64,000 nt of DNA from Candidatus Levyibacteriota bacterium (GCA_029260965.1 JAJDCG010000001.1:248012-312011), one strand, 5' to 3'. Positions 54,846-58,609 are shown, counted from the stretch's first letter. Made by a program: numbers and translations. The notes: generated by a model from the letters alone, not told the origin.

Positions 54846-56786
54846 ATGCCAGAAGCAGGTGCTGATTTTCTCAAAAAAAAATACGATCTTCACAATAGCC
54901 CAGAAGTTTTAAGCGCTGCAAGGAGAACGGAAATAAAAACGGGAAGAAGAGTGCTGCAATCTCCTGAACCACGTATCCAAAACTATCTTGCCCGCTTCAA
55001 AGAAATTGTTGATGAGAAAGATGAGGACAAGAAAAAAGAAAATATCCAAGCTCTGAAAAGAGTTCTTCTTCCCAAGTTCGTGACCAAATTTAAGGATATC
55101 CCCGATAGTTACTGGAAGCTGCAAGAGCGAATACTCCGTGAACGCGGACAACAGGGAGATTATGACCGTTTCTCAGATGAAGAGAAGAATAAGGCAAAAC
55201 ATGAGATCGCCGATGGTCTCTTGTCTGATCAGCAATCATCACTTGAGCAGTGGATTGATTATCTTGCATCGGATGACTCTTCATACATTCCTGATCATAT
55301 AAAGTATTGGACATTTAGAAGCGTTATTGGCCTTGCTGAGTATGACAAAGACAAGAAAGAGTTTCCTGAAAGATCAAAAGGAACAGTTAAGATGTTTCCT
55401 GATATAAATCAAGAAGCCCTTTCTACCATGATTGATTGGTTTTTGAAGAATCAGAAAGGGGAACCCGTTACTCTTGAGGGATATGAAAGGGACCTGACTG
55501 ATGAGCAGAAAAACCAAGCCAGACAATTTATCTCGCAGGAAAATTTTGCCAAGCTTTATGGTTTTGTCAATGAACTCATCAGGCCAATTCCAGAGCATCT
55601 TATTCCAATAACCAAAGGGAAATGGGTCAAGTATGAGCAGGGCTCGGATCACACTCCATTGGTGCAGTCAATACGCGGACGGGGAACAGGCTGGTGCACG
55701 GCTGGTGAAAATACCGCTAAAACCCAACTGGGAGGTGGAGATTTTCACGTTTTTTATTCCAACGATGATGATGACAATCCCACAATTCCCCGCATTGCAA
55801 TCCGTATGGAGGGGGAAAAGATTGCTGAAGTTCGTGGAATTGCAGCCAAACAAAACCTTGATCCTTACATGACGGAAATACTTGAGAAAAAGCTTGATGA
55901 GTTCCCTGATAAAGACAAATATCTCAAAAAAGAACATGACATGAGACAGTTAACAGAGATTGATAAAAAAGTAAAAAGAGGGGAAGCGCTTGGAAAAGAT
56001 GAACTTGTTTTTCTTTATGAAGTAGATTCCAAAATTCAAGGATTTGGGTATCAAAGCGATCCTCGCATTAACGAATTGAGAACTGGTAGAGATATGCACG
56101 AGGATATGCTGACTATTTTTGATTGTACAGAGGATCAAATTGCTCATGCAACAGACCAGATGAATGAAAACACCAAAGCCTATGTTGGTAAGCTTACTCC
56201 TGGAATTTTTGATCAAATTCAAAAATACAACATTGAGCATGTCTTTACTTCTTTTCCTGAAGGAAGAATACGGCTTGAGTCGCTCACAATTGGTGGTAAG
56301 AGCGTAAAAGAGCTTCAAGAAGAAATGCGAAGTGAAAATATAAATATTAGTGGTTACGTAAGAGATATGCTGGAAAGTCCTGATTTTGTGACGCAACAAA
56401 ATAAGGAAGACATTGATCTGGTTCGTTTGAAAGTTGGGGATCTTGGTTTGGGAGGAAGTCCCACGACTGATCAACTATATGAAAAAGCAAAAGAACTCGG
56501 GTTAGATTTGTGTCCTGCGGAAGTTGGACCGCAGATGCGGCTGACATATAAGGATCAACCCCTTTACGAATATTTCAATATAGGAATGAAACAAATTGCC
56601 GATTCCGATGGCTGTCCGGATGTCTTCACGCTGGATCACGGTGACGATGGTTTGTGGTTGAGTGACTATTGGGCAAGGCCGGAGGACGGGTGGGCGCCTG
56701 TCGATGAGTTTGTTTTTCGTCTCCGGCCGAGCGGAAGCGAGGCAAGCAAGTCTCCTTTGAAATTTTGGCCCTTTAGACATTCTTGA
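54846..56786 (+). CDS. DGR target protein: 646 aa, no signal peptide or TM, with a C-terminal variable region
   Basis: The C-terminal segment ...DSDGCPDVFTLDHGDDGLWLSDYWARPEDGWAPVDEFVFRLRPS is encoded by the VR. Many of the varied codons correspond to AAT/AAC/AAG codons in the TR. The N-terminal roughly 580 aa have no recognised domain. Confidence 0.7.
   Translation: MPEAGADFLKKKYDLHNSPEVLSAARRTEIKTGRRVLQSPEPRIQNYLARFKEIVDEKDEDKKKENIQALKRVLLPKFVTKFKDIPDSYWKLQERILRERGQQGDYDRFSDEEKNKAKHEIADGLLSDQQSSLEQWIDYLASDDSSYIPDHIKYWTFRSVIGLAEYDKDKKEFPERSKGTVKMFPDINQEALSTMIDWFLKNQKGEPVTLEGYERDLTDEQKNQARQFISQENFAKLYGFVNELIRPIPEHLIPITKGKWVKYEQGSDHTPLVQSIRGRGTGWCTAGENTAKTQLGGGDFHVFYSNDDDDNPTIPRIAIRMEGEKIAEVRGIAAKQNLDPYMTEILEKKLDEFPDKDKYLKKEHDMRQLTEIDKKVKRGEALGKDELVFLYEVDSKIQGFGYQSDPRINELRTGRDMHEDMLTIFDCTEDQIAHATDQMNENTKAYVGKLTPGIFDQIQKYNIEHVFTSFPEGRIRLESLTIGGKSVKELQEEMRSENINISGYVRDMLESPDFVTQQNKEDIDLVRLKVGDLGLGGSPTTDQLYEKAKELGLDLCPAEVGPQMRLTYKDQPLYEYFNIGMKQIADSDGCPDVFTLDHGDDGLWLSDYWARPEDGWAPVDEFVFRLRPSGSEASKSPLKFWPFRHS
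56595..56729 (+). repeat. DGR variable repeat (VR)
   Basis: 135 bp, colinear with the TR at 57064-57198. About 20 substitutions fall at TR adenine positions (A to G, T or C), plus one T-to-G difference. All other positions are identical. Confidence 0.8.
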
Positions 56787-56902
56787 ACCTTTGACTCTTT
56801 GATACTTTGACACTTCGTTTCTTTCCAAATTTTTGTTATACTTTTCTTGGAGAGGTTTTATGCAAATGGCTACGGCTTTTGCAGACTTTTCCGATGAATA
56901 CA

Positions 56903-56931
56903 AAATTGAGAGCGCGGAAGGCTATGGTTTT
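56903..56931 (+). terminator. GC-rich hairpin downstream of the DGR target gene (CGCGGAA-N10-TTCCGCG)
   Basis: A 7-bp perfect stem with a 10-nt loop, about 120 nt after the target stop. The T-tract following it is weak. Confidence 0.2.
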
Positions 56932-57063
56932 CCGCGGAGGATTTGTATCTTATCTTAAAAAACAGAAGAGACTTGGTGTTTTGTACTGGCTGATTTTAGA
57001 TCACAAGTAAAATACAGCTAAATGTTTTTTTGCATAAGCAGTGAGATAGATGGTGCAAGGCGC

Positions 57064-57198
57064 ATTACCGATTCCGATGGCAATCCGAATGTCTTCAAAC
57101 TGAATCACAATGACGATGGTTTGTGGTTGAATGACAATTGGGCAAAGCCGAAGAACGAGTGGAATCCTGACAATGAGTTTGTTTTTCGTCTCAGAAAG
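57064..57198 (+). repeat. DGR template repeat (TR)
   Basis: Adenine-rich at the variable codon positions (AAT/AAC/AAG). It shares the 3'-terminal motif AGCGAGGC with the VR-flanking sequence, which may be IMH-like. The track ORF 57022..57246 is just the TR read in frame and is not a gene. Confidence 0.8.
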
Positions 57199-57219
57199 TG
57201 CCTTTCTTTTCCGCCCGCA

Positions 57220-57543
57220 TCAAGCGAGGCGGTTTTTCTTATATGAATTTTCCGAACTTCTTTTCCATCCCCCAAGCATTTTTCCAATTTCATCAAGTTT
57301 TAGGCCAACCACCTCGTAATGTTTGTGAGAAATTATTTTTCCCTCCCACGCTACGGAAATAAGAAACTTAAGAACATCCAGCGTCAAAATACATTCTGAA
57401 ATTTTTTCCGTTTTGTCTGATTTTTGGGTAAAATATGTAGTGTAGGAAAGCTCAAGCAGGTCAAGAAATTTATTTTCAATTCTTGAGCCGATCGTGAAGC
57501 GTGCACCTTTTGCAATATGAGGCGAAATATTCATCCAGATCAA
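57220..57543 (-). CDS. avd: Avd-like accessory variability determinant (four-helix-bundle, TIGR02436-type)
   Basis: 107 aa. The C-terminal region ...LKLDEIGKMLGGWKRS matches the L.EIGKML.GLI ending of Avd / 23S-rRNA-IVS four-helix-bundle proteins. It lies between the TR and the RT on the opposite strand. Confidence 0.55.
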   Translation of the reverse strand: MIWMNISPHIAKGARFTIGSRIENKFLDLLELSYTTYFTQKSDKTEKISECILTLDVLKFLISVAWEGKIISHKHYEVVGLKLDEIGKMLGGWKRSSENSYKKNRLA

Positions 57544-57556
57544 ATATCCCTCTTTG

Positions 57557-58609
57557 ATGCGGCTCAGGAGCGTGGATTTTGCAGAGAGAGAGAGAGAGAG
57601 AGAGAGAGAGAGAGCTATAGTTACTCATACTTATGATGATATCAAATCTATTGAGAATTTGCTTCTTTCATGGCAGGAATTTTTGCGTGGAAAAAGAAAG
57701 CGCAAAGACGTTGCGGAATTTTCAGTTTATTTCATGGACAATATCTTTTCTCTTCATCAGGAACTGACTGATAAGACATATAAACATGGGTTGTATTCAG
57801 CCTTTAAGATAAATGATCCAAAGCCCCGCGATATTCATAAAGCTCATGTTCGAGATCGTCTTGTCCATCATGCTATTTATAGAGTTTTATATCCATATTT
57901 TGACCGTAAGTTTATTTATGATTCCTATTCATGCAGGACTGATAAGGGTACCCACCGGGCAATTAACCGCTTTAGACAATTTGGCAGAAAGATATCCCGT
58001 AATAATACCCGGACAGCATGGGTCTTAAAATGTGATATTAAAAAATTCTTTGCGAGCATAGATCATAGCATTTTGAAAAAGATTTTAAGTACGCATATTG
58101 AGGATGAAAATATTTTGTGGTTGTTGGGGCAAGTCATTGATAGCTTCAATGTTGATGACAAGAAGGGTGTTGGTCTGCCGCTTGGAAACCTGACGAGCCA
58201 GCTTTTGATAAATATTTATATGAATAAATTTGATCAGTTTGTGAAGCGGAAATTAAAAACCAGATATTATATCCGTTATGCCGATGATTTTGTATTTTTA
58301 AGTAAAGATAAATCATATTTGGAGAATTTAATTCCTAAAGTATCAGTTTTTTTAGAAAAAGAACTCAAGCTATCGCTTCATCCGGACAAACTTTATATTA
58401 AAACGCTTGCTTCCGGTGTTGACTTTTTAGGATGGGTAAATTTCCCAACACACAGAGTTTTAAGAACTGCAACCAAGAAAAGGATGCTTAGAAGATTAAA
58501 ACAAAACACTACAGATGAAAGCCTAATTTCTTATCTGGGGTTAATTGGTCACGGAGACAGTTATAGATTGTCTCAAGAAATTTATAGCATTTTGAAAGAA
58601 AAAAGATAG
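57557..58609 (+). CDS. DGR reverse transcriptase
   Basis: The N-terminal DGR-RT region IENLLLSWQEFLRGKRKRKDV...PKPRDIHKAHVRDRLVHHAIYRVL..FIYDSYSCRTDKGTHRAI, motif 4 GLPLGNLTSQLLINIYMN (SQ in place of retroviral/group II SP) and YADDFVFL (YxDD). It is 351 aa, with no maturase or endonuclease domains. The start is uncertain: ATG 57557 or TTG 57554, upstream of the GA tract. Confidence 0.85.
   Translation: MRLRSVDFAERERERERERAIVTHTYDDIKSIENLLLSWQEFLRGKRKRKDVAEFSVYFMDNIFSLHQELTDKTYKHGLYSAFKINDPKPRDIHKAHVRDRLVHHAIYRVLYPYFDRKFIYDSYSCRTDKGTHRAINRFRQFGRKISRNNTRTAWVLKCDIKKFFASIDHSILKKILSTHIEDENILWLLGQVIDSFNVDDKKGVGLPLGNLTSQLLINIYMNKFDQFVKRKLKTRYYIRYADDFVFLSKDKSYLENLIPKVSVFLEKELKLSLHPDKLYIKTLASGVDFLGWVNFPTHRVLRTATKKRMLRRLKQNTTDESLISYLGLIGHGDSYRLSQEIYSILKEKR
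57583..57614. repeat. (GA)16 dinucleotide microsatellite
   Basis: A perfect 32-nt AG/GA tract. It lies within the first approximately 20 codons of the RT ORF as drawn, where it encodes (ER)n, and about 40 bp upstream of the divergent avd start codon. Confidence 0.95.

What the first reader, a model, noticed from the sequence alone, without database searches (positions are those of the whole stretch)
54846..58609. Complete diversity-generating retroelement: target gene with C-terminal VR, TR, opposite-strand Avd and an SQ-type reverse transcriptase
Two 135-bp segments, 56595-56729 inside the 3' end of the 646-aa ORF and 57064-57198 in the intergenic region, are colinear and differ almost only where the intergenic copy has adenine. 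I counted about 20 A-to-N changes and one T-to-G. That adenine-specific pattern is the hallmark of DGR mutagenic retrohoming. The intergenic TR is rich in AAT/AAC/AAG codons. A 351-aa reverse transcriptase with the DGR-diagnostic GNLTSQ motif 4 and YADD follows. An Avd-like four-helix-bundle ORF sits between the TR and the RT on the opposite strand. This locus would hypervariabilise the C-terminus of the target protein.
Basis: seen in the sequence. Interest (0 to 1): 0.85.

Follow-up and report, generated by a model that had tools for sequence, protein, structure and literature searches.

The report
CPR retroelement with repeat-tract on/off switch
This is a genuine diversity-generating retroelement of the kind already known from ultra-small (CPR) bacteria, but it and over a hundred relatives carry a hypermutable (GA)n or poly-G tract inside the overlapping starts of its two enzyme genes, which probably switches the mutator on and off; here the accessory gene appears to be switched off.

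Summary
VR 56595-56729 and TR 57064-57198 are colinear over 135 nt with 24 mismatches, 23 at TR adenines (p=8e-14).

The RT's closest solved relative is the Bordetella DGR RT. Avd matches DGR-Avd profiles. The VR lies in a divergent C-type-lectin-fold domain at the C-terminus of a 646-aa protein from a large uncharacterised Patescibacteria family. The layout, target / TR / (avd reversed) / RT, is the published 'B3' architecture typical of CPR DGRs. As a DGR it is therefore a new member of a known kind.

One feature was not found in the literature searched. The called 107-aa Avd is N-terminally truncated. The Avd frame continues through the (AG)16 tract at 57583-57614 to a conserved ATG at 57628, which is the complement of an invariant RT His codon. 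The RT frame likewise reaches back to a conserved ATG at 57517.

A (GA)n or poly-G tract sits at this position in about 113 related loci. Its length differs between loci with identical flanks, always changing the frame, and only about one third of assemblies are in phase. Codon-avoidance statistics support dual coding of the overlap.

In this window (AG)16 leaves full-length Avd out of frame; (AG)17 would restore it. That the tract acts as a switch is inferred, not shown.

The parts
54846..56786 (+). DGR target gene, 646 aa. It belongs to a very large Patescibacteria family of unknown function, with an invariant GTGWC(T)AGE motif in the middle part.
   Evidence: ORF. At least 2647 homologs, about 52% identical over the full length, none with a Pfam domain. 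No Pfam, NCBIfam, PADLOC or PHROG hit. AlphaFold model pLDDT 85.6.
56109..56729 (+). C-terminal domain of the target (residues 422 to about 628) with a divergent C-type-lectin / FGE-like fold; it carries the VR.
56595..56729 (+). Variable repeat (VR), 135 nt, covering the last conserved codons of the target.
   Evidence: 24 mismatches to the TR, 23 at TR adenines. In the family alignment the same columns alternate between hypervariable and invariant.
56789..56812 (+). Three tandem 8-mers CTTTGAnn just after the target stop codon. This is part of a CTT(T/A)G(A/G) motif array seen downstream of VRs in relatives; its role is unknown.
   Evidence: 1.8 motifs per 150 nt after the target stop in 25 DGR loci against a background of 0.13, and 0.48 in 21 homolog loci without a DGR.
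57064..57198 (+). Template repeat (TR), 135 nt, intergenic, with 41 adenines.
57211..57240 (+). GC-rich hairpin (stems 57211-57218 and 57224-57232) followed by TTTTTCTT, 12 nt after the TR. It overlaps the avd stop codon and last codons on the other strand. It is a candidate intrinsic terminator and/or structured 3' element of the TR RNA.
   Evidence: ViennaRNA dG -13.5 kcal/mol. An equivalent hairpin plus T-run starts within 20 nt of the TR end in 25 of 27 loci (the other two have a different, more distal structure picked by the script), with different stem sequences. No consistent counterpart follows the VRs. The simple terminator scan did not flag it because the stem is bulged.
57220..57543 (-). 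avd as first called (107 aa from TTG 57543). It holds most of the Avd four-helix-bundle domain but lacks the start of helix 1.
   Evidence: PF22296 E=2.4e-14, matching from profile position 17. NF033474 matches from profile position 20. PHROG 3206 'Avd protein of DGR'.
57544..57628 (-). Upstream continuation of the avd reading frame: '..AKSTLLSRIKEGY', then the tract read as (SL)n, then the distal ATG at 57628-57626. With (AG)16 the ATG is out of frame with the avd body and gives a 50-aa product (57476-57628).
   Evidence: The conserved peptide ASIL(N/Q)RIKEGYL(I/L)W lies upstream of the called start in 87 of 87 loci. NF033474 aligns from profile position 2 on the extended proteins. The distal ATG is in frame in 28 of 28 in-phase loci. 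Simulation; the 50-aa ORF is listed.
57583..57614 (.). (AG)16 simple-sequence tract inside the antisense overlap of avd and RT. It is the only dinucleotide run of 8 or more units in the window. Candidate slipped-strand phase switch.
   Evidence: A (GA)n or poly-G tract sits at the same position in about 113 related loci. Length differs between loci with 100% identical 300+300-nt flanks. Phase distribution is 34/25/28.
57517..57519 (+). Conserved upstream ATG, the complement of the Avd His codon. It is the candidate authentic RT start and is in frame with the RT body only at (AG)14, 17 or 20.
   Evidence: Present in 87 of 87 loci, and its frame is open to the tract in 87 of 87 against 53% for the control frame. 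Codon avoidance; simulation.
57554..58609 (+). Reverse transcriptase ORF (351 aa from TTG 57554, or 350 aa from ATG 57557). The conserved RT body starts at about 57632. Motifs GNLTSQ and YADD are present.
   Evidence: RVT_1 E=1.5e-22. Best solved relative is bRT 8ub7, E=1.9e-45. PHROG 1423 E=1e-108.

Best explanation
The locus is a chromosomal diversity-generating retroelement of the CPR/Patescibacteria type (architecture B3: target, TR, reversed avd, RT).

Inferred from the Bordetella paradigm: a plus-strand RNA containing the TR (57064-57198) is copied by the RT-Avd complex with random misincorporation opposite adenines. The cDNA then replaces the VR (56595-56729), recoding up to 24 codons on the C-type-lectin-like C-terminal domain of a 646-aa protein.

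Two family-specific features are proposed.
(1) The TR RNA probably ends at, or is structured by, a hairpin plus U-run 12-42 nt after the TR. It would then be a separate transcript from the RT mRNA.
(2) avd and RT are divergent genes whose 5' coding ends overlap in exact antisense register by about 110 nt. Avd would start at ATG 57628 and the RT at ATG 57517. A hypermutable purine tract, here (AG)16, lies inside the overlap and is read as (SL)n in Avd and (ER)n in the RT. Gain or loss of repeat units by slipped-strand mispairing changes the frame, so only every third tract length yields full-length Avd together with the RT initiated at the conserved ATG.

On this reading the tract is a contingency switch that turns targeted hypermutation on and off within a population. 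The window's allele, (AG)16, has Avd off, while the RT is still readable from a local TTG/ATG at 57554/57557. One more repeat unit would turn both on.

Confidence by part: DGR identity about 0.97; the overlapping gene structure about 0.8; its use as an on/off switch about 0.6.
For: DGR identity:
- Adenine-specific VR/TR differences, p=8e-14.
- RT closest to bRT, sharing the SQ motif.
- Avd profile matches.
- C-type-lectin fold of the VR domain.
- Same cassette with A-only mismatches in about 35 of 80 CPR genomes.
- L036 and L042 have 99.3% identical TRs and upstream sequence, yet their VRs differ at 21 sites, all at TR adenines.
- B3 architecture and CPR clade 2 are published.

Overlap:
- The Avd peptide is conserved upstream of the called start in 87 of 87 loci.
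- The DGR-Avd profile aligns from position 2 only when Avd is extended.
- Sequence variation has a 3-nt periodicity in the avd register.
- ATGs are conserved on both sides of the tract.
- 0 of 398 Leu/Ser codons in the Avd overlap are TTA, CTA or TCA, against 327 of 1429 in the avd body (p=1e-39). In the RT overlap the figure is 0 of 96, against 1018 of 4083 in the body (p=2e-12).
- The avoidance also holds in subfamily members not found through the 18-mer. It is absent in a divergent subfamily whose RT has its own ATG after the tract, which serves as a natural control.

Switch:
- A tract is present in about 113 loci, 90 (GA)n of 6-37 nt and 23 poly-G of 7-18 nt.
- Among 20 pairs with 100% identical flanks, 15 agree in length and 5 differ. 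The 5 form 3 groups from sibling samples, and differ by whole units that always change the frame.
- Phases are evenly spread (34/25/28), and RT ORFs remain intact even where there is no start codon.
- L025 has an interrupted, in-frame tract.
- Simulation of window alleles.

Hairpin.
Against: - No read-level or expression data were available, so on/off switching is inferred from assemblies only.
- The called Avd start, TTG 57543, has a good Shine-Dalgarno-like AAAGAGGG 5 nt upstream. A shorter Avd might be made in every phase, although those bases are also the K-E-G codons of the longer frame.
- Neither conserved ATG has an obvious ribosome-binding site.
- Two thirds of assembled genomes being 'off' is a high fraction. 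Transcriptional or ribosomal slippage on the tract could instead supply product in all phases.
- Loci are phylogenetically related, so the p-values overstate independence.
- 87 of the TTG codons in the overlap were fixed by the search pattern; excluding them gives 0 of 311.
- Short-read assemblies can miscount repeats, although replicate assemblies agreed in 15 of 15 cases outside the three variable groups.
- No clear IMH/IMH* pair was identified.
- Paul et al. 2017, the main CPR DGR paper, could not be read, so prior description cannot be excluded.
Confidence: 0.65

Rival explanations
1. An ordinary, constitutively expressed B3-type DGR. Avd is the 107-aa protein from TTG 57543 and the RT starts at TTG 57554 or ATG 57557. 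The (AG)n tract is only a tolerated low-complexity stretch, a leader or an N-terminal linker, whose length drifts neutrally.
For: Both ORFs are open in the window. There is an SD-like AAAGAGGG 5 nt before TTG 57543. The phase distribution is uniform, as expected if the tract is not under frame constraint. Some relatives have an ATG for the RT 3-5 nt after the tract.
Against: The 107-aa Avd lacks profile positions 1-19, and the missing residues are encoded and conserved just upstream in 87 of 87 loci. About 18 of 87 loci have an intact RT ORF with no canonical in-frame start on either side of the tract. Complete avoidance of antisense-stop codons in both overlaps, limited to the subfamily that needs it, is not expected for an untranslated or neutral segment. 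Conservation of a mutable tract at one position across more than 100 loci and two repeat types argues for selection on it.
Confidence: 0.2
2. The tract acts as a rheostat rather than a switch. RNA polymerase or ribosome slippage on (GA)n or poly-G yields a mixture of frames from any allele, so Avd and RT are always made at low, length-dependent levels.
For: Uniform phases with intact ORFs. Long homopolymer and dinucleotide tracts are known slippage sites (general knowledge). The tract is retained even where the RT has its own start.
Against: No direct evidence. Slippage on (GA)n is not well documented. The DNA-level length polymorphism between identical-flank loci already provides a simpler switching mechanism.
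Confidence: 0.1
3. A decaying, inactive DGR relic in this genome. The avd frameshift at the tract is a pseudogenising mutation, and the VR/TR differences are fossils of past activity.
For: Full-length avd is out of frame in the window. There is one non-adenine VR/TR difference. Some relatives are clearly degraded, for example L042 with an avd-RT deletion, and about half of the target homologs have no adjacent cassette.
Against: The RT ORF, the TR with 41 adenines, the hairpin and the Avd body are all intact. The only lesion is a one-unit change in a tract that varies reversibly among identical-flank relatives. The same 'lesion' occurs in two thirds of otherwise intact cassettes.
Confidence: 0.05
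4. Not a DGR: a chance or recombinational direct repeat next to a group II intron or retron-type RT.
For: The best NCBIfam match by score is the group II RT model at 145 bits, but that is well below its cutoff of 300.
Against: The mismatch spectrum is adenine-specific at p=8e-14. bRT is by far the best solved relative. A DGR-Avd gene is adjacent. There is no intron RNA or retron ncRNA hit in Rfam. The cassette and its A-bias recur in dozens of genomes.
Confidence: 0.01

Closest known systems
CPR/Patescibacteria DGRs: architecture B3 'TR-(avd)-RT' of Wu et al. 2018 (PMC5758913), and DGR clade 2 of Roux et al. 2021 (PMC8144416)
   Same: Same host group, same gene order and orientation, chromosomal rather than viral, and a target without recognisable Pfam domains whose VR was predicted to sit in a novel C-type-lectin variant.
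   Different: Nothing differs at the level of classification; this is a member. The papers I could read do not mention the avd/RT antisense overlap, the embedded repeat tract or the hairpin after the TR. The specific target family has no name.
Bordetella phage BPP-1 DGR (mtd, avd, TR, brt)
   Same: Homologous RT (E=2e-45 to 8ub7, with the same SQ and Y(A/M)DD motifs), an Avd of the same family, adenine-specific TR-to-VR transfer, and a VR at the C-terminus of a C-type-lectin-fold domain.
   Different: BPP-1 is a phage element with avd-TR-brt co-oriented, a 140-nt spacer RNA between TR and brt, a 34-bp IMH and a cruciform after the VR. Here avd is reversed and overlaps the RT, a hairpin plus U-run follows the TR, no clear IMH or cruciform was found, and the target is a cellular protein.
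Simple-sequence contingency loci (slipped-strand phase variation) of Haemophilus, Neisseria, Campylobacter and Helicobacter, including phase-variable DNA methyltransferases ('phasevarions') and the (TA)n tract between the divergent hifA/hifB genes
   Same: A homopolymer or dinucleotide tract in the 5' coding region, length polymorphism among otherwise identical sequences, frame-changing steps, intact ORFs in off alleles, and one tract serving two divergent genes (literature and general knowledge).
   Different: Here the switched function is itself a mutator (a DGR). The tract is translated on both strands within an antisense gene overlap rather than lying in a shared promoter. The hosts are CPR bacteria. 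Switching has not been observed directly.
DGR target proteins with C-type-lectin folds: Mtd, TvpA, LdtA/Lcl-type (DUF1566) and FGE-sulfatase-type
   Same: The fold class of the VR-bearing domain, a C-terminal VR, and variable positions interspersed with invariant scaffold residues.

Membership tests
Diversity-generating retroelement | TR/VR repeat pair whose differences fall almost only at TR adenines | tested here: met
   23 of 24 mismatches at TR adenines, p=7.8e-14. The same holds in about 35 related loci.
Diversity-generating retroelement | RT of the DGR clade, with motif 4 (I/L/V)GxxxSQ, rather than a group II, retron or other RT | tested here: met
   Best PDB match is bRT 8ub7, 159 bits, E=1.9e-45, against 73 bits or less for the others. 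GNLTSQ aligns to GSLTSQ. PHROG 1423 at 1e-108. No phylogeny was built.
Diversity-generating retroelement | VR inside a protein-coding target, typically a C-terminal C-type-lectin or Ig fold | tested here: met
   [not shown]
Diversity-generating retroelement | Accessory variability determinant (Avd) | tested here: met
   PF22296 at 54 bits, above its cutoff of 40. NF033474 at 65 bits, below its equivalog cutoff of 80. PHROG 3206. Caveat: the full-length frame is interrupted at the tract in this assembly.
Diversity-generating retroelement | IMH at the 3' end of the VR, a non-identical IMH* at the 3' end of the TR, and optionally a GC-rich inverted repeat after the VR | tested here: inconclusive
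   Homology ends 0-3 nt after the last mutated adenines. A 21-nt stretch with few adenines (GATGAGTTTGTTTTTCGTCTC) precedes them. The VR flank is GC-rich in the window but this is not conserved in relatives, and no consistent hairpin follows the VRs.
Diversity-generating retroelement | Ongoing mutagenic retrohoming (VR heterogeneity at adenine positions, TR invariant) | not testable with these tools
   No reads were available for the window's population. The only second assembly (L001) has an identical VR. In relatives, L036 and L042 differ at 21 VR sites, all at TR adenines, and L058 and L060 differ at 20 A sites plus 2 other sites.
CPR-type DGR (architecture B3, clade 2) | Gene order target, TR, (avd on the reverse strand), RT, in a Patescibacteria chromosome | tested here: met
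   Coordinates. Homologs are all named Patescibacteria/CPR. The definition is in PMC5758913. There is no viral context.
SSR-mediated phase-variable (contingency) locus | Simple-sequence tract within the 5' coding region or promoter of the controlled gene | tested here: met
   (AG)16 at 57583-57614 lies within the extended avd frame and the RT upstream frame.
SSR-mediated phase-variable (contingency) locus | Tract length polymorphic among otherwise identical sequences, in frame-changing steps | tested here: met
   Three groups with 100% identical 600-nt flanks differ by 2, 4 or 8 nt, while 15 replicate pairs agree. This is in relatives, not in the window's own population.
SSR-mediated phase-variable (contingency) locus | Reversible on/off switching of expression within a clonal population | not testable with these tools
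   This needs read-level allele counts and expression or protein data.

The most novel reading that the evidence does not exclude
In a large clade of CPR DGRs, the two enzyme genes (avd and RT) are encoded head-to-head with antisense-overlapping 5' ends, and a single hypermutable (GA)n or poly-G tract sits in the shared segment. Slipped-strand changes in that one tract would therefore switch the whole hypermutation machine on or off, giving phase-variable targeted hypermutation. Most natural populations would be 'off' at the consensus level. This would be the first built-in stochastic regulator described for a DGR.
Probability: 0.5. Interest if true: 0.8.

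Novelty: new variant of a known kind. Interest (0 to 1): 0.62.

Why it matters
How DGR activity is regulated is largely unknown. Population surveys see alternating phases of diversification and stasis (Roux et al. 2021) but offer no mechanism for them. A contingency tract that gates Avd, and in this subfamily the RT as well, would give a simple heritable and reversible explanation. 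It would predict that only a subpopulation mutates its target at any time, and it would supply a sequence marker (tract length modulo 3) for scoring DGR on/off state directly from metagenomic reads.

There is also a practical point for annotation. Gene callers truncate avd and misplace the RT start in these genomes. Exact look-ups of the called Avd and RT products found nothing on record, and one independent assembly breaks inside the tract.

Finally, the work defines a family of more than 2600 CPR proteins with a divergent C-type-lectin domain. About half of the sampled members are DGR-diversified, which makes the family a candidate key player in CPR-host or CPR-phage interactions.

Tried and rejected
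- RNAalifold on a MAFFT alignment of the TR 3' flanks gave no structure, because the stems and loops differ too much to align. I replaced it with per-locus folding anchored on the T-run.
- The simple promoter/terminator scan found no sigma-70-like promoter in 56400-57800 and missed the bulged hairpin.
- Folding the whole TR region gave an unremarkable z-score of -0.86.
- I first read the tract as a switch for the RT only, and AAAGAGGG as the avd ribosome-binding site. I dropped this when the 3-nt periodicity and profile coverage showed that the avd frame continues upstream.
- I considered the tract as a spacer between -35 and -10 boxes. The spacing, 34 nt in the window, does not fit.
- I considered the tract as a Shine-Dalgarno mimic for the RT. 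That is possible only in the loci with an ATG 3-5 nt downstream.
- The PcfJ-like lead for the target (from Wu et al.) got no Pfam support in any of 28 members.
- Full-length Foldseek against PDB returned nothing significant.
- A profile search of PDB sequences with the target family returned nothing.
- Exact-protein look-ups of Avd and RT found no other contigs.
- An 18-mer scan of viral contigs gave only chance hits.
- Paul et al. 2017 is not in the library.

Full report
**1. The observation**

In register they differ at 24 of 135 positions. 23 of these are at TR adenines (15 A>G, 5 A>C, 3 A>T). The other is a T>G in a codon whose two adenines also changed.

23 of the 41 TR adenines are changed, against 1 of 94 other bases, hypergeometric p=7.8e-14. 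38 of the 41 TR adenines occupy codon positions 1 or 2, and AAT occurs eight times. 24 codons can vary, giving about 10^21 peptides. Similarity collapses immediately outside the repeat, and the window holds no further VR.

**2. The proteins**

The RT ORF (57554-58609) matches RVT_1. Its best solved relative by far is the Bordetella phage DGR RT bRT (8ub7: 159 bits, E=1.9e-45). Group II and retron RTs score 73 bits or less. GNLTSQ aligns with GSLTSQ and YADD with YMDD. It also matches PHROG 1423 at E=1e-108. No NCBIfam RT model reaches its cutoff.

The minus-strand ORF 57220-57543 matches bAvd (PF22296), the DGR-Avd equivalog model NF033474 (65 bits, below its cutoff of 80) and PHROG 3206, 'Avd protein of DGR'.

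The 646-aa target has no hit in Pfam, NCBIfam, PADLOC or PHROGs. It nevertheless has at least 2647 homologs, all from Patescibacteria/CPR and all unnamed, about 52% identical over the full length. They share an invariant GTGWC(T)AGE motif and a C-terminal 45 residues in which hypervariable and invariant columns alternate.

**3. Relatives**

I fetched 80 loci from GTDB species representatives using the target family.
- About 30 of them have RT and avd downstream in the same orientation.
- About 35 have a VR/TR pair of 125-140 nt, with 14-28 mismatches almost all at TR adenines, and the TR 440-540 nt downstream of the VR.
- L036 and L042 are 99.3% identical in both TR and upstream sequence. Their VRs differ at 21 sites, all at TR adenines and none elsewhere. 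This is comparative evidence that the clade is active.
- About 21 homolog loci with at least 3 kb of downstream sequence have no cassette.

The cassette was not found on IMG/VR contigs. The window's neighbours are ordinary cellular genes: inositol-1-phosphate synthase, CDP-alcohol phosphatidyltransferase, a DAG-kinase-like gene and a CarS-like gene upstream, and a 499-aa then a 568-aa ORF that look like glycogen synthase and glucan phosphorylase downstream (the downstream assignments were made by eye and not tested).

The layout is exactly 'B3: TR-(avd)-RT'. Wu et al. report that B3 accounts for 90% of CPR DGRs. Roux et al. place CPR DGRs in a cellular clade 2 whose targets lack recognisable domains. 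As a DGR, this is a new member of a known kind.

**4. A hairpin after the TR**

Twelve nucleotides after the TR there is a GC-rich hairpin (57211-57232, dG -13.5 kcal/mol) followed by TTTTTCTT. It overlaps the avd stop codon on the other strand. In 25 of 27 loci a hairpin plus T-run starts within 20 nt of the TR end, with different stem sequences (CCGCC/GGCGG, CCGCAC/GTGCGG, CTCCTCTC/GGGAGGAG, CCACCGCC/GGCGGTGG and others). In the other two loci the script picked a different, more distal structure. VR flanks have no consistent counterpart.

I infer that this hairpin terminates or structures the TR RNA. If so, the TR and RT are separate transcripts, unlike in BPP-1. This is inference only.

**5. 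The repeat tract**

(AG)16 at 57583-57614 is the only dinucleotide run of 8 or more units in the window. Every related cassette but one has a (GA)n or poly-G tract at the same position. A metagenome scan with the adjacent conserved 18-mer returned at least 120 contigs, of which about 113 carry the tract: 90 with (GA)n of 6-37 nt and 23 with poly-G of 7-18 nt.

Among 20 pairs of loci with 100% identical 300+300-nt flanks, 15 have the same tract length, so assembly of the tract is reproducible. The other 5 pairs, forming 3 groups from sibling samples, differ by 2, 4 or 8 nt, always changing the frame. The tract therefore mutates much faster than its surroundings.

**6. What the tract lies in**

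The called Avd starts matching its profiles only at position 17-20. Upstream of the called TTG the avd frame stays open and encodes '...ASIL(N/Q)RIKEGYL(I/L)W...' in all 87 non-redundant loci. Sequence variation there has the codon periodicity of the avd register. With this extension NF033474 aligns from profile position 2, at the residues just after the tract.

No start codon is conserved between those residues and the tract. Beyond the tract there is a conserved ATG, the complement of the RT's invariant His codon (window 57626-57628). It is in frame with avd in all 28 loci of one phase and in none of the phase-1 loci.

Symmetrically, a plus-strand ATG 37 nt upstream of the conserved TTG (window 57517-57519, the complement of an Avd His codon) is present in 87 of 87 loci. 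Its frame is open up to the tract in 87 of 87, against 53% for a control frame. Both ATGs are in frame with their gene bodies in the same phase.

The strongest evidence that both strands are translated is codon avoidance.
- In the Avd overlap, 0 of 398 Leu/Ser codons are TTA, CTA or TCA, whose complements are stop codons in the antisense register. Excluding a TTG fixed by the search pattern, the count is 0 of 311. The avd body has 327 of 1429 (p=1e-39).
- In the RT overlap the count is 0 of 96, against 1018 of 4083 in the RT body (p=2e-12).
- The avoidance also holds in six subfamily members that lack the exact 18-mer.
- It is absent in a divergent poly-G subfamily whose RT has its own ATG after the tract. 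That subfamily has 7 such codons in 5 loci, which makes it a natural control.

In that subfamily only avd crosses the tract, read as Pro-n, so avd is the common denominator.

**7. Phase**

The RT body falls in the three phases relative to the upstream sequence in 34, 25 and 28 of 87 loci. In the independent GTDB set avd is in frame in 9 of 21. Out-of-phase loci keep intact RT ORFs, and about 18 of them have no canonical in-frame start at all. L025, the one locus without a perfect repeat, has an interrupted, in-frame 'SLSVTL'.

In the window the alleles behave as follows:

| Allele | Avd from the distal ATG (57628) | RT |
|---|---|---|
| (AG)16, as assembled | 50 aa | 350 aa, from the local ATG 57557 |
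| (AG)17 or (AG)14 | 136 or 134 aa, full length | 364 or 362 aa, from ATG 57517 |
| (AG)15 or (AG)18 | truncated | none |

These are the features of a slipped-strand contingency locus. Direct evidence of switching within a population is missing. The rivals are an internal Avd start with an SD-like AAAGAGGG, slippage during expression, or decay of the element.

**8. Literature**

Full-text searches linking DGRs with phase variation, simple-sequence repeats, slipped-strand mispairing or homopolymers found no description of this feature. Wu et al. mention neither an overlap nor a tract. Paul et al. 2017 could not be read, so novelty is provisional.

**9. Verdict**

The element itself is ordinary for CPR bacteria. 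The added value is the revised gene structure and the probable repeat-tract switch. Together they make this a new variant of a known kind and give a testable handle on how DGRs are regulated.

Noticed in passing
window 57583-57614, and the same position in about 113 loci (e.g. L053, L132, L113, L162, L198, L141, L182): A conserved, length-polymorphic (GA)n or poly-G tract between, and in fact inside, the divergent avd and RT genes. This became the core of the report.
   Followed up: yes
window 57211-57240; TR 3' flanks of L002-L077: A GC-rich hairpin plus T-run immediately after the TR, with different stem sequences between loci, overlapping the avd stop codon. It is not seen after VRs. It is probably the terminator or a structural element of the TR RNA.
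   Followed up: partly
window 56789-56812 (also 56755); VR 3' flanks of related loci: An array of CTT(T/A)G(A/G) motifs at a period of about 8 nt just downstream of the target stop codon. It is enriched about 14-fold in DGR-bearing loci and only weakly in homolog loci without a DGR. It could be a target-site recognition element or a promoter for the TR.
   Followed up: partly
L009, L011, L012, L013, L022, L026, L032 and others (21 loci): About half of the target-family homologs with ample flanking sequence have no RT, avd or TR within 3-5 kb. The family therefore exists both with and without an adjacent DGR, through loss, trans-acting cassettes or an ancestral non-diversified state.
   Followed up: partly
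L001 (Logan assembly of SRR15505512), corresponding to window about 57609: An independent assembly of the same sequence ends inside the (AG)n tract after 27 nt. This is consistent with heterogeneity or low complexity breaking the assembly graph there.
   Followed up: no
L042 2833-3343: A near-identical relative of L036 has an internal deletion that fuses the 3' half of avd to the 3' half of the RT, making a dead cassette. Its VR still differs from L036's at 21 TR-adenine sites.
   Followed up: no
L025 about 3264-3340: The only cassette without a perfect repeat tract. The equivalent codons read SLSVTL and are in frame with the distal ATG, an apparently 'locked-on' allele.
   Followed up: partly
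[not shown]
   Followed up: partly
L027, L028, L040: In three genomes the RT and avd lie in the opposite orientation relative to the target gene, and my direct-repeat search found no TR. The cassette may be inverted.
   Followed up: no
L079 (JAUYPG010000036.1): A target-family homolog sits on a contig labelled Nanoarchaeota archaeon. This is either mis-binning or transfer between CPR and DPANN.
   Followed up: no
window 50841-54801: Directly upstream of the target is a compact lipid-head-group gene set: inositol-1-phosphate synthase, CDP-alcohol phosphatidyltransferase, a PHP-domain protein, a DAG-kinase-like protein and a CarS-like CTP-transferase (Pfam labels). This suggests inositol-phospholipid synthesis in this CPR genome.
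   Followed up: no
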